This document shows positions 28,373 to 57,835 of a stretch of 64,000 nucleotides of DNA, in pieces. The notes beneath the pieces are model-generated. The model made no database searches and was not told the DNA's origin. It saw only the letters and a program-made list of their open reading frames with translations. Numbering within the stretch: position 1 is the first letter of the stretch; each line of letters starts with the position of its first letter. The DNA is taken from contig JAHRHZ010000066.1 of assembly GCA_024137785.1 (NCBI GenBank), positions 1,224,491 through 1,288,490 on the forward strand. Direction: 5' to 3'. Source of the DNA: Ginglymostoma cirratum (lineage: Eukaryota). The translations under genes and the position numbers were made by a program.

Positions 28373-28450
28373 GCAAAGGACAGCGACGATGATGATGAAG
28401 TCAGCGTTAATGTGGACAGAGACCACTTCATGGATGAGTTCTTTGAACAG
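28373..28450 (+). CDS. STX1A: Syntaxin-1 coding exon 2 ([26 protein letters not shown])
   Basis: Acceptor tctttattctttcacAG, 78 nt in frame with exon 1, donor CAG|GTGAGA. The 26-aa length fits STX1A; the STX1B segment is one residue shorter. Contains the Ser14 acidic CK2-type site. Confidence 0.95.
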
Positions 28451-34276: not shown

Positions 34277-34803
34277 GAGATAAAAGGTACTGCAGATGCT
34301 GGAGAATCCGAGATAACAAGGCGTGGGGCTGGATGAACACAGCAGGCCAAGCAGCANNNNNNNNNNNNNNNNNNNNNNNNNNNNNNNNNNNNNNNNNNNN
34401 NNNNNNNNNNNNNNNNNNNNNNNNNNNNNNNNNNNNNNNNNNNNNNNNNNNNNNNNNNNNNNNNNNNNNNNNNNNNNNNNNNNNNNNNNNNNNNNNNNNN
34501 NNNNNNNNNNNNNNNNNNNNNNNNNNNNNNNNNNNNNNNNNNNNNNNNNNNNNNNNNNNNNNNNNNNNNNNNNNNNNNNNNNNNNNNNNNNNNNNNNNNN
34601 NNNNNNNNNNNNNNNNNNNNNNNNNNNNNNNNNNNNNNNNNNNNNNNNNNNNNNNNNNNNNNNNNNNNNNNNNNNNNNNNNNNNNNNNNNNNNNNNNNNN
34701 NNNNNNNNNNNNNNNNNNNNNNNNNNNNNNNNNNNNNNNNNNNNNNNNNNNNNNNNTGCTGCTTGGCCTGCTGTGTTCATCCAGCCCCACGCCTTGTTAT
34801 CTC
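34277..34803. mobile_element. Penelope-derived family A inverted duplication spanning an assembly gap, 14-bp TSD
   Basis: 34310-34356 is the exact reverse complement of 34757-34803 (47 bp). TSD TAGAAGATAAGATA at 34263-34276 and 34804-34817. Inserted into the CR1 above. Confidence 0.8.
34357..34756. other. Assembly gap (400 N)
   Basis: Run of N. Confidence 1.
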
Positions 34804-38512: not shown

Positions 38513-38746
38513 CTGAGATAACAAGGTGTAGAGCTGGATGAACACAGCAGGCCAAGCAGCATCAGGGGAGCAGGAAAGCTGGCGTTTCGGGTCTGGACCC
38601 CTTCTTCAGAAGGGTCTTCCTGAAGAAGGGTCCAGACCTGAAACGCCAGCTTTCCTGCTCCCCTGATGCTGCTTGGCCTGCTGTGTTCATCCAGCTCTAC
38701 ACCTTGTTATCTCAGATTCTCCAGCATCAGCAGTTCCTACCATCTC
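38513..38746. mobile_element. Penelope-derived family A near-perfect inverted duplication (~96-bp arms, 10-nt spacer)
   Basis: 38513-38609 versus 38620-38715 differ by about one substitution and one indel. Imperfect TSD agtccca(c/g)ctg. Inserted into a minus-strand CR1/HE1-type tail (38430-38800). Confidence 0.85.
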
Positions 38747-46240: not shown

Positions 46241-46456
46241 TAAAAACTGAAAGAACTGTGGATGCTGTAAATCAGGAACAAAAACAGAAGTTACCATAAA
46301 TGATCAGATGTGGCAGCATCTGTGAAGGAAAATCAAAATTAACGTTTCAGGTCCAGTGACCCTTCTTCAGAACTGACCTGAAACATTAACTCTGATTTTT
46401 CATCACAGATGCTACCAGACTGGCTGAGCTTTTCCAGCAACTTCTGTTTTTGTTCC
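46241..46456. mobile_element. Penelope-derived family B inverted duplication with minus-strand hammerhead core
   Basis: Minus strand 46374-46337 reads AGTT-CTGAAGA-A-GGGTC-ACTG-GACCT-GAAAC-GTT-AATT; the second arm begins gacctgaaacattaactctg at ~46375. Confidence 0.8.
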
Positions 46457-50235: not shown

Positions 50236-50322
50236 CAAGGTGTAGAGCTGAACACAGCAGGCCAAGCAGCATCAGAGGAGCAGGAAAGCTGACGTTTCGG
50301 GTCTAGACCCTTCTTCAGAAAT
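50236..50322 (-). mobile_element. Penelope-derived family A monomer with hammerhead-like core
   Basis: Minus strand 50318-50291 reads CTGAAGA-A-GGGTCTAGACCC-GAAACGTC, followed by the family body. Confidence 0.8.
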
Positions 50323-55057: not shown

Positions 55058-55422
55058 GGGGTGGCACAGTGGCTCAGTGGTTAACACTGTTGTTTCACAG
55101 CACCAGGGACAACACCAGTGTTCAATTCCAGCCTTGGGTGACTGTCTGTGTCGAGTTTGCATGTTCTTCCTGTATCTATGTGGGTTTCCTCTGGGTGGTC
55201 TGGTTTGCTCCCACAGTCCAAAAATATGCAGGTTAGTTGGATTGGCCATGCTAAGTTGTCCATAGTGACCAGGGATTTGTAAGTTAGTGGATTAGCCATG
55301 GGAAATCCACGGTTACAGAGATGGCAGGGGAGTGAAGTCTGGGTGGAATGCTCTTTGGAGAATTGGTGTGGACTTGTTGGGCTGAATGGCCTGTTACCAC
55401 ACTGTGGGGATTCTATGATTCT
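55058..55422 (+). mobile_element. HE1-type SINE
   Basis: ggcacagtggctcagtggttaacactg, gttcaattcca, ccacagtccaaaaatatgcaggttag, and tail ccacactgtgggattctatgattct. Confidence 0.85.
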
Positions 55423-55562
55423 GAGAGTTCAAACCTGAAATTCTAATCACCACCAGGGTCTTTGCACACTGTGCTAAGATTCAGTGGCCTGGACTGAGCA
55501 GATAGGGATCAACTGTTCCCATTGGTGGAAGGATTGAAAAGTAGAGGGTAGAGATTTAACAT

Positions 55563-55939
55563 CTAAGGTTTTGGAGTAGATTTGTAGCTCGGGTTGTGGG
55601 TGTTGAGGTTGGTTGGCTCGCCGAGCTGGTTTGTTGTTCTGCAGACATTTCGTCCTGGGACAGGCTAGGCAGAGACTGGCACGAGAATTCGTAGAAGCGT
55701 GGCACTCCACGAAGCATGCTATTAATAAACACATTGAACTCGACCCCATATACATTCCACTACGAAGGAAAACCGGAAGTGAGGCAACCCATCTCAACTG
55801 ACCCCAGAGTTTAAAAACCAGGCAGGAAAACACACCGACGCTTCATCGGAGGCCGCACTGAGGATGTTACCAAGCATGGTAACGAAACGTCTGCGAAACA
55901 ACAAACCAGCTCGGCGAGCCAACCAACCTCGACAGCCTC
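55563..55939 (+). mobile_element. 5'-truncated Penelope-like element (family C): inverted pseudo-LTR piece, GIY-YIG-type C-terminal remnant and hammerhead; 12-bp TSD; inserted in a CR1 3' end (~55480-56185)
   Basis: TSD GAGATTTAACAT at 55551-55562 and 55940-55951. Inverted repeat 55605-55653 / 55882-55930. ORF remnant LGQARQRLAREFVEAWHSTKHAINKHIELDPIY resembles the end of Penelope endonucleases (REFxEAW...IN). Confidence 0.85.
55854..55895 (+). ncRNA. Minimal type I hammerhead ribozyme motif
   Basis: CGCA-CUGAGGA-U-GUUACCA-agca-UGGUAAC-GAAAC-GUC/UGCG. Helix I CGCA:UGCG, 7-bp helix II, intact core, palindromic ACGU in place of helix III, predicted cleavage after C55891. Confidence 0.8.
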
Positions 55940-56574
55940 GAGATTTAACATAACTGATAAAAGGAACAGTGGCAAAAAAACCTTTTCACACAGCAAGTGG
56001 TTGGATCTGGAATGTATTGTCTGAGAGTGTGGTGGAGGCAAGTTAAATTGTCGCATTCGAAAAAGGAAAAGGAAAGGATGTGCAGGAGAGAAGGCAAATG
56101 AATGGCATTAGGAGAACTGCTCTATCAGAGAGCCTGCACAGACACAATGGGCTAAAGACTTCCTGTACTGTAACCATCCTGTAAATAAAATGATGATAAA
56201 AATAAATTTGGATGAGCATTTAAAGAAAATAAACTTCCATAGCTAGGGGACAGAGCGAGAATGCAATTGATTGAACTGATCAACAGAGAATTGACATGGA
56301 TGTGATGATGGAGTAGCCTCCTCCCCACTGTTCTGACTGACATTTCAGGTGATAATTGGATTGAAGAGATGTTGGCCTGATAGAGTACTGACCAATGGCT
56401 AACAGAAATAAAATTTATTTGTCTGGCTAAAGAAGATCAATGCTAAATAGCAAGTTTCAACACTCTTAGGCCACTGGCAACACAAATGTTTTATTTCTTT
56501 AAGTATAAGCTTGTTTCCTTAAATGCACCCTATATTTGTATTTTCTGCAAATGGTCTAGGTTGGCAATTTAGTG

Positions 56575-56830
56575 AGGTAGTCTTCCATTGTCAGAGCTGC
56601 TGTTTTTCAGATGAGATCTTAAACTAAGGCTTTGTCTCAAAGTATACAAGATTCCAATGCACTATATCACAAATAACCTTCTGTTGTGGTGGGGATAACA
56701 CAGTGTGGAATTGGAGGAACCCAGCAGGCCAGGCAGCATCAGAGGAGCCTGAAAGCTGATGTTTTGGGTCGGGGCACTTCTTCAGAAAGGTGTCCTGGTC
56801 AAGACTCTAACCTCGGCTAAATGTCAACAA
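56575..56830 (+). mobile_element. Deu-domain SINE remnant interrupted by a minus-strand family A Penelope-derived monomer (~56692-56788)
   Basis: gctgtttttcagatgagatcttaaactaaggc...agattccaatgcactat...ggtgtcctggtcaa resembles the Deu domain. The insert reads cagcaggccaggcagcatcagaggagc...gttttgggtcggggcacttcttcag. Confidence 0.55.
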
Positions 56831-57735: not shown

Positions 57736-57835
57736 GTTGAAGAAATCCGAGGCTTCATAGACAAGATCTCTGAGAACGTGGAAGAGGTTAAGCGAAAACA
57801 CAGTGCAATCCTCGCTGCACCGAACCCAGATGAAA
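57736..57835 (+). CDS. STX1A: Syntaxin-1 coding exon 3 (Habc helix a: [33 protein letters not shown])
   Basis: Acceptor ttatcAG, 100 nt, donor A|GTAAGC (phase 1). It lies inside ORF 57682..57864. [17 protein letters not shown] is the STX1A-type sequence (STX1B has GCIEKLSEDVEQVKKQH). Confidence 0.95.

What the first reader, a model, noticed from the sequence alone, without database searches (positions are those of the whole stretch)
55854..55895. Apparently intact hammerhead ribozyme in the sense strand of syntaxin-1 intron 2
Seen: every core element of a hammerhead is present in register: helix I CGCA/UGCG, CUGAGGA, one extra nucleotide, perfect 7-bp helix II GUUACCA/UGGUAAC, GAAAC, and a GUC cleavage triplet. 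Helix III is reduced to the palindrome ACGU. Established: Penelope-like elements carry such minimal type I hammerheads in their pseudo-LTRs, proposed to cleave as dimers through the palindrome, and an extra base between A9 and G10.1 is tolerated in natural hammerheads. Inference: this copy is on the transcribed strand ~1.8 kb upstream of exon 3, so it could cut the nascent pre-mRNA of a core neuronal SNARE gene and affect splicing or output. As a monomer it may be only weakly active.
Basis: partly seen in the sequence, partly recalled or inferred. Interest (0 to 1): 0.8.

Follow-up and report, generated by a model that had tools for sequence, protein, structure and literature searches.

The report
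Penelope leftover hammerhead in syntaxin intron
The motif is a real, intact copy of the small self-cutting RNA carried by Penelope-type jumping genes, one of more than a thousand such copies in this genome, and here it is likely inert because it has no partner copy and is predicted to be covered by an inverted piece of its own insertion.

Summary
In detail: 55854-55895 (+) is a complete minimal type I hammerhead, 1.8 kb upstream of syntaxin-1A exon 3. It is the pseudo-LTR ribozyme of a 377-bp, 5'-truncated Penelope/Poseidon-type insertion (55563-55939, 12-bp target duplication). The genome holds 1,186 matches to this family's intact core and 5,288 to a second family's.

Cutting of the pre-mRNA is unlikely:
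- Helix III needs a second copy, and the only other family copy found in the gene region scanned has a broken core.
- The insertion's own inverted arm is predicted to pair with GAAA-GUC-UGCG (0.94-1.0, except C55888; 15.5 kcal/mol to open).
- In 87 copies picked without regard to the ribozyme, rare changes hit the core about as often as the flanks (power is low), and 22 of 92 are as intact.
- The 'perfect' seventh pair matches common CpG decay.
- Sense and antisense cores in the gene number 8 and 8.

No RNA data could test cleavage. The class was described in 2014, and this scan has noted the same thing in other genomes.

The parts
55854..55895 (+). minimal type I hammerhead motif (helix I CGCA/UGCG, core CUGAGGA, extra U, helix II, GAAA, ACGU palindrome, GUC triplet; scissile bond would be 55891/55892)
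   Evidence: sequence; helix II pairs 1-6 at 0.98-1.0 and pair 7 at 0.75 in the folds
55563..55939 (+). whole 377-bp truncated Penelope/Poseidon-type insertion
   Evidence: genome search, flanks and ends of 30 copies, target duplication
55551..55562 (+). left copy of the 12-bp target-site duplication GAGATTTAACAT
55940..55951 (+). right copy of the 12-bp target-site duplication
55563..55653 (-). inverted, 5'-truncated pLTR piece: 55598-55653 is antisense to 55882-55937 (56 nt, 91% complementary); 55563-55597 is the antisense 'tail' extension seen at the 3' end of other copies
55655..55801 (+). remnant of the C-terminal end of the GIY-YIG endonuclease frame (48 codons, then a stop)
   Evidence: 44 of 48 residues identical to the frame of copy L017, whose N-terminal part hits Pfam GIY-YIG weakly (E 0.007, below cutoff)
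55802..55939 (+). 3' pseudo-LTR region holding the hammerhead and ending at the short AC-rich terminus (left boundary approximate)
57736..57835 (+). syntaxin-1A exon 3 (host gene)
28373..28450 (+). syntaxin-1A exon 2 (host gene)
6313..6342 (+). syntaxin-1A first coding exon

Best explanation
This is the pseudo-LTR hammerhead of a short, 5'-truncated Penelope/Poseidon-type retrotransposon copy that sits in syntaxin-1A intron 2 and is likely an inert passenger there. Shown: the 377-bp insertion has a 12-bp target duplication, an endonuclease remnant, one pLTR with the ribozyme, and an inverted pLTR-plus-tail arm upstream. Established: helix III has no loop, so the active fold needs two same-family copies paired through ACGU and through exchanged helix I strands. 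Predicted: in the pre-mRNA the upstream arm pairs with GAAA, GUC and the 3' strand of helix I once about 14 nt past the cut site have been made, and stays paired. Inferred: the motif looks intact because the parent element kept it and this copy has not yet been hit in the core, not because the host selects for it.
For: Family: 6,409 first-look candidates, 40 scored; 80 exact 41-mers; 1,186 intact-core matches; longer copies carry RT (Pfam RVT_1 E 1.7e-10, above cutoff) and a GIY-YIG frame. Partner: the window has no second copy; one sense copy lies about 122 kb downstream, several exons later, and reads GTAAT in place of GAAAC. Masking: 56-nt arm; MFE -162.8 kcal/mol, z -10.9; 55884-55894 paired to the arm at 0.94-1.0 except C55888, helix I at 0.0, 15.5 kcal/mol to form helices I and II with a free core. 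Decay: in 87 of 92 copies chosen on the endonuclease region, rare non-CpG changes in core vs outside were 13/957 vs 173/9222 (alleles seen in <=2 copies, p 0.31) and 19/957 vs 203/9222 (<=3, p 0.82); the palindrome's CpG has decayed in 28 of 87, within the 11-47 range of the 12 CpGs scored; 22 of 92 copies are intact. Orientation: 8 sense and 8 antisense cores in the gene region scanned. Literature: monomer inactive, dimers weak; the PAc ribozyme needs protein and leaves no RNA-seq ends; a slow intronic hammerhead cut did not stop splicing (second-hand).
Against: No cleavage assay or RNA data were available. The folds are equilibrium predictions. With the 3' end at 55896-55900, helix I still forms at 0.34-0.76, so a brief window exists. 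Singleton changes are nominally lower in the core (5/957 vs 85/9222, p 0.28), so the neutrality test has low power. Counting all changes, the core is significantly better kept (19/957 vs 350/9222, p 0.003); I read this as selection in the source elements. This copy has a private C55854 (1 of 92) that turns a U.G pair of helix I into C-G, although it also lacks the fifth pair through G55896A. The insertion is probably also present in a related species (weak), so it has persisted.
Confidence: 0.88

Rival explanations
1. The ribozyme cuts weakly or rarely, in trans with same-family RNA from other loci or with help from the element's own protein, without any effect on syntaxin output.
For: The core and palindrome are intact. 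More than a thousand compatible cores exist in the genome. The PAc ribozyme is protein-assisted. A short window exists before the arm closes.
Against: Dimers are slow even in cis. The arm is predicted to lock the core within about 14 nt of synthesis. Without the arm, 55890-55896 is predicted to pair with 55689-55695 instead (9.7 kcal/mol penalty). The reported protein-binding region of PAc lies in the first 172 nt of its ORF, while this copy ends about 48 nt after the cut site; whether the two families correspond there was not tested.
Confidence: 0.07
2. The copy has been co-opted as a regulator: cleavage of intron 2 races the splicing of exon 2 to exon 3 and tunes syntaxin-1A output, as reported for the CPEB3 ribozyme.
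For: Sense strand, 1.8 kb before an exon of a neuronal gene. Private C55854 strengthens one helix I pair. The CPEB3 precedent exists (abstract). A weak hint of presence in a related species.
Against: No monomer helix III, no partner, predicted masking. Intactness is common (22 of 92). The window copy differs from the family majority at 12 of 172 sites, a middling figure (range 5-40). At least seven other sense-strand cores lie in the same gene. CPEB3 is an HDV-like monomer ribozyme, not a dimer-dependent one.
Confidence: 0.02
3. Any effect of the insertion on the host comes from the 56-bp fold-back duplex (a possible editing or splicing signal), not from cleavage.
For: The hairpin is the dominant predicted structure (z -10.9).
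Against: Such inverted arms are the ordinary by-product of Penelope insertion (54 of 93 copies; described). The hairpin lies 1.8 kb from the splice site. No RNA evidence.
Confidence: 0.03

Closest known systems
Minimal hammerheads (min-HHR) in pLTRs of metazoan Penelope-like elements (Cervera & De la Pena 2014, PMC4209133)
   Same: Helix II of 6-7 bp, helix I of 4-5 bp, one base between positions 9 and 10.1, G10.1-C11.1 pair, palindromic 15.2-16.2, thousands of mostly single copies, some pairs on opposite strands.
   Different: Nothing in kind. The parts of the paper I read name fishes, coelacanth, Xenopus and reptiles, not this lineage; I did not see its supplements.
Poseidon element of Anolis carolinensis, PAc (Frangieh et al. 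2024, PMC11167929)
   Same: RT plus C-terminal GIY-YIG, pLTR hammerhead, and two 3' termini 30-40 nt apart in an AC-rich stretch (43 of 93 copies here scored as carrying the long tail).
   Different: PAc has full-length active copies. This copy is a 377-bp fragment with no RT. In PAc the ribozyme needs the protein and is not needed for insertion in vitro.
Inverted 5'-truncated insertion units of EN+ Penelope-like elements (Craig et al. 2021, PMC8557442)
   Same: An inverted, 5'-truncated copy next to the 5' end, and a 30-40-bp tail at one end.
   Different: The passages I saw do not discuss the inverted arm masking the ribozyme.
Host-associated intronic ribozymes: CPEB3 (HDV-like) and ultraconserved amniote intronic hammerheads
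   Same: A self-cleaving motif on the sense strand of an intron of a neuronal gene (CPEB3).
   Different: Those are conserved across mammals or amniotes, and CPEB3 cleaves with a measured half-life. This one is a repeat copy without helix III and with no sign of host selection.

Membership tests
min-HHR of metazoan PLEs | Conserved core CUGANGA / GAAA / UH in register | tested here: met
min-HHR of metazoan PLEs | Long helix II with G10.1-C11.1 and one extra base after A9; short helix I | tested here: met
min-HHR of metazoan PLEs | Palindromic 15.1-16.1 stretch in place of helix III | tested here: met
   ACGU at 55887-90
min-HHR of metazoan PLEs | Lies in the pLTR of a Penelope-like element | tested here: met
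min-HHR of metazoan PLEs | Covariation of the helices | tested here: inconclusive
   Within this family only 2 double changes among 12 pairs x 92 copies. Between families helix II differs yet pairs (GUUAC/GUAAC, GGGUC/GACCC, GCUAC/GUAGC); this was seen by eye, not tested statistically.
min-HHR of metazoan PLEs | Self-cleavage as a dimer | not testable with these tools
   needs an in vitro assay
Penelope/Poseidon clade of EN+ PLEs | RT followed by a C-terminal GIY-YIG endonuclease | tested here: met
   RVT_1 E 1.7e-10 in L015; GIY-YIG E 0.007, below the Pfam cutoff, in L017; order seen in L015. Tested on sibling copies; the window copy keeps only the endonuclease tail.
Penelope/Poseidon clade of EN+ PLEs | [quoted passage not shown] | tested here: met
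   8 natural frames span LPYI..VIYKIPC with no cysteine before the endonuclease; criterion. No RT tree was built.
Penelope/Poseidon clade of EN+ PLEs | 5' truncation, inverted pLTR piece, optional 30-40-nt tail | tested here: met
Rfam hammerhead families | Score at or above the gathering threshold | tested here: not met
Non-LTR retrozymes | Tandem units each with a complete type I hammerhead | tested here: not met
   single unit in the window; definition
Host-co-opted intronic ribozymes (CPEB3-like role) | Able to fold alone into the active form | tested here: not met
   no helix III loop; core predicted to be sequestered
Host-co-opted intronic ribozymes (CPEB3-like role) | Conserved at the orthologous site beyond neutral expectation | tested here: inconclusive
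   a weak hint of presence in one related species; the state of the ribozyme there was not seen

The most novel reading that the evidence does not exclude
Penelope insertions bring their own antisense lock: the inverted pLTR arm made during insertion (shown to cover GAAA-GUC in 47 of 93 copies here) silences the ribozyme in host pre-mRNAs, and this is what lets thousands of catalytically competent copies sit on the sense strand of introns. It predicts that intact sense-strand intronic copies without an arm are depleted, and that removing the arm at this locus allows protein-assisted or trans cleavage of syntaxin-1A intron 2.
Probability: 0.05. Interest if true: 0.5.

Novelty: new member of a known kind. 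Interest (0 to 1): 0.08.

Why it matters
As it stands it matters little: it is one more copy of a ribozyme class described in 2014, in a genome with thousands of them, and its place in a syntaxin intron is what a gene of more than 190 kb would collect by chance. If it did cut the pre-mRNA and tune syntaxin-1A, it would be a young retroelement ribozyme recruited into neuronal gene control, comparable to CPEB3. The one reusable point is that the insertion's inverted arm is predicted to mask the ribozyme, which can be tested genome-wide.

Tried and rejected
Rfam: no hammerhead model scored.

Sequencing runs: no RNA holder listed; this is no evidence either way. All four runs laid were contigs, which cannot show RNA ends. 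The right junction and the state of the ribozyme at the orthologous site remain unseen.

One search gives only a weak hint of shared presence. Single-copy contigs of organism A end 25 nt inside the insertion (55391-55587 in X1, 55366-55587 in X2), short of the 31 letters the tool asks for. 600 joints were not shown, so an empty site is not excluded.

A dimer with the second, short family was rejected: it shares ACGU, but its 3' strand (AGCU, AAGU) does not pair with CGCA. A tandem partner was rejected for this locus; among 115 loci with the ribozyme region, two same-strand copies were seen at one place only (L043/L044), but flanks were only 1.1-3.4 kb.

A fixed relation between arm ends and the cut site was not seen: the inner ends are scattered, and most run past the 55765 limit of the query.

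Pfam gave no hit on the short syntaxin exons or on L015:940-1230. The dimer bracket string printed was malformed and is not used. Lunse et al. (RNA Biol, PMC5785218) is not held. No RT tree and no genome-wide intron orientation test were run.

Full report
Observation. The loose hammerhead pattern occurs 10 times in the window against 1.6 expected, with 0 of 100 shuffles reaching 10. Rfam does not score the motif. The host gene is syntaxin-1A-like: coding exons at 6313-6342, 28373-28450 and 57736-57835, with exon 3 matching syntaxin-1A at 31 of 33 residues. Further exon motifs lie out to about 200.5 kb in window-extended coordinates (the peptide motifs used to find exons were recalled). The motif is on the sense strand of intron 2, 1,844 nt before exon 3.

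What it sits in. The motif is part of a 377-bp insertion, 55563-55939, bounded by a perfect 12-bp duplication. From 5' to 3' the insertion has an inverted arm, a 48-codon endonuclease remnant and one pseudo-LTR. The arm's inner 56 nt are 91% complementary to 55882-55937, and its outer 35 nt are the reverse of the tail seen at the 3' ends of other copies. The remnant is 44/48 identical to the frame of copy L017. Longer copies carry a reverse transcriptase (Pfam RVT_1, E 1.7e-10) and a GIY-YIG frame (E 0.007, below cutoff). Eight natural frames across the linker show no extra cysteine motif, which fits Penelope/Poseidon by the criterion in PMC8557442 (passages). That paper describes this anatomy, an inverted 5'-truncated copy plus a 30-40-bp tail, as typical.

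How common it is. The DNA search gave 6,409 first-look candidates, of which 40 were scored. The exact 41-mer occurs 80 times. A pattern that demands the core, five pairs of helix II and ACGUC matches 1,186 places. One pattern of a second, shorter family matches 5,288 places. The reversed controls gave 0 in all three pattern searches. Nine of the ten pattern matches in the window passed a helix II filter, eight of them other than this one. Across the gene region scanned (6.3-204 kb) a stricter filter finds 8 sense and 8 antisense cores, 6 and 6 with the palindrome. There is no sign of a sense-strand deficit, though the sample is small.

Is this copy specially preserved? I took all 93 copies that match a 63-mer of the endonuclease region exactly (loci), so they were not chosen on the ribozyme. 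One (L096) was dropped for a rearranged downstream part. Of the other 92, 63 keep the core, 39 keep core and palindrome, and 22 also keep six pairs of helix II and four of helix I; 8 have the same 7+4 pairing as the window. The seventh pair is A.C in 37 copies and A-U in 28, which fits decay of the CpG at 55877. After dropping 5 more divergent copies (87 kept), rare non-CpG changes in the core versus outside were 5/957 vs 85/9222 (singletons, p 0.28), 13/957 vs 173/9222 (p 0.31) and 19/957 vs 203/9222 (p 0.82). With shared variants included they were 19/957 vs 350/9222 (p 0.003). I infer selection on the core in the source elements and little or none after insertion, but the singleton test is weak and its estimate leans toward a better-kept core. 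The palindrome's CpG has decayed in 28 of 87 copies, inside the 11-47 range of the 12 CpGs scored. Double compensatory changes within the family number 2. The window copy has a private C55854 that makes a C-G pair in helix I, and lacks the family's fifth pair.

Can it fold and cut? Helix III has no loop, so the active form needs a second same-family RNA. This follows PMC4209133 (parts 1-2 of 4 read), where a monomer showed no cleavage and dimers or trimers low cleavage, and the review PMC6765202 (passages and section 11 part 2). The window has no second copy. The only other copy found in the 204 kb scanned lies about 122 kb downstream and has lost GAAA. In the isolated 101-mer, helices I and II form but core bases mispair. 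With the insertion's 5' part included, 55884-55894 pairs with the arm at 0.94-1.0 except for C55888, helix I falls to 0.0, and freeing the core costs 15.5 kcal/mol. The switch is predicted once the RNA reaches about 55905, 14 nt past the cut site; at 55896-55900 helix I still forms at 0.34-0.76. At the 3,800 nt/min quoted in PMC2995048 (passages) that gap is well under a second; this is an inference from equilibrium folds, not a kinetic model. Inverted arms lie within 1 kb upstream in 54 of 93 copies. In 49 the arm starts at or before 55884, and 47 of these are shown to reach across the triplet; two end short of it, probably cut by the 1-kb limit.

What is known of activity and effect. In PMC11167929 (parts 1-2 of 4 read) the Poseidon ribozyme of Anolis cleaves only with the element's protein, is not needed for insertion in vitro, and leaves no RNA-seq reads ending at its site. 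PMC2995048 reports, second-hand, that intron cleavage by a slow hammerhead still allows splicing while a fast HDV ribozyme does not. The CPEB3 precedent for a regulatory intronic ribozyme comes from the abstract of PMC10274809. A 2026 preprint (10.64898/2026.07.22.740005; part 1 of 5 and passages) finds tandem, dimer-competent retrozymes under-represented in Xenopus introns, which suggests that active tandem forms may be selected against; this copy is not tandem. Lunse et al. is known to me only through its title and the review. A search for shark + hammerhead ribozyme + Penelope listed one review, which I did not open. I read no supplements; those of PMC4209133 may list motifs from this lineage.

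Other species and RNA. No RNA holder was listed. Contigs of a related species, about 96% identical in the flanks, run 25 nt into the left end of the insertion in two runs, a weak hint that the insertion is shared. The ribozyme's state there was not seen.

Verdict. A real, intact minimal hammerhead of a known class, carried by a truncated Penelope/Poseidon-type copy and most likely inert in this intron (0.88). Earlier notes of this scan reached the same reading for other genomes; they are unchecked and I do not count them as evidence. Novelty: new member of a known kind. Interest 0.08.

Noticed in passing
window 2687-2742 and 38584-38644: Two back-to-back inverted pairs of a second, short minimal-hammerhead family (CUGAAGA A GGGUC..GACCC GAAAC). 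One pattern of this family has 5,288 genomic matches. Most copies begin right at the core and lack helix I.
   Followed up: partly
window 3244-3270 (-), 12206-12230 (+), 46344-46370 (-), 50294-50318 (-), 56712-56791 (-): More hammerhead-bearing short repeats of two related subfamilies; the last is a decayed antisense copy between the finding and exon 3.
   Followed up: partly
L120, window-extended 99631 (+): A second sense-strand core in the same gene (after exon 3) with the palindrome, a 5-bp helix II and a 4-pair helix I scored.
   Followed up: no
L128, window-extended 177688-177941 (+): Same-family Penelope fragment with the long tail and a broken GAAA box, on the sense strand of a later intron.
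   Followed up: yes
window 55490-55562 and 55952-56070: The insertion landed inside an older repeat remnant. Its translation (DRDQLFPLVEG...) resembles the C-terminal end of a CR1-type LINE ORF2; the label is recalled and was not tested.
   Followed up: partly
window 55059-55420: A very high-copy repeat (summed contig depth up to about 1e6) just upstream of the insertion; it looks like a tRNA-derived SINE (recalled, not tested).
   Followed up: no
window 34357-34756: A 400-base run of N, flanked by inverted pieces of the short hammerhead-bearing repeat, in intron 2; not examined.
   Followed up: no
window 6000-8000: G+C-rich stretch (0.53 against about 0.40) around the first coding exon, likely the promoter CpG island.
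   Followed up: no
L010 2797-2827: A related subfamily with a compensatory change in helix II (GCUACC/GGUAGC).
   Followed up: no
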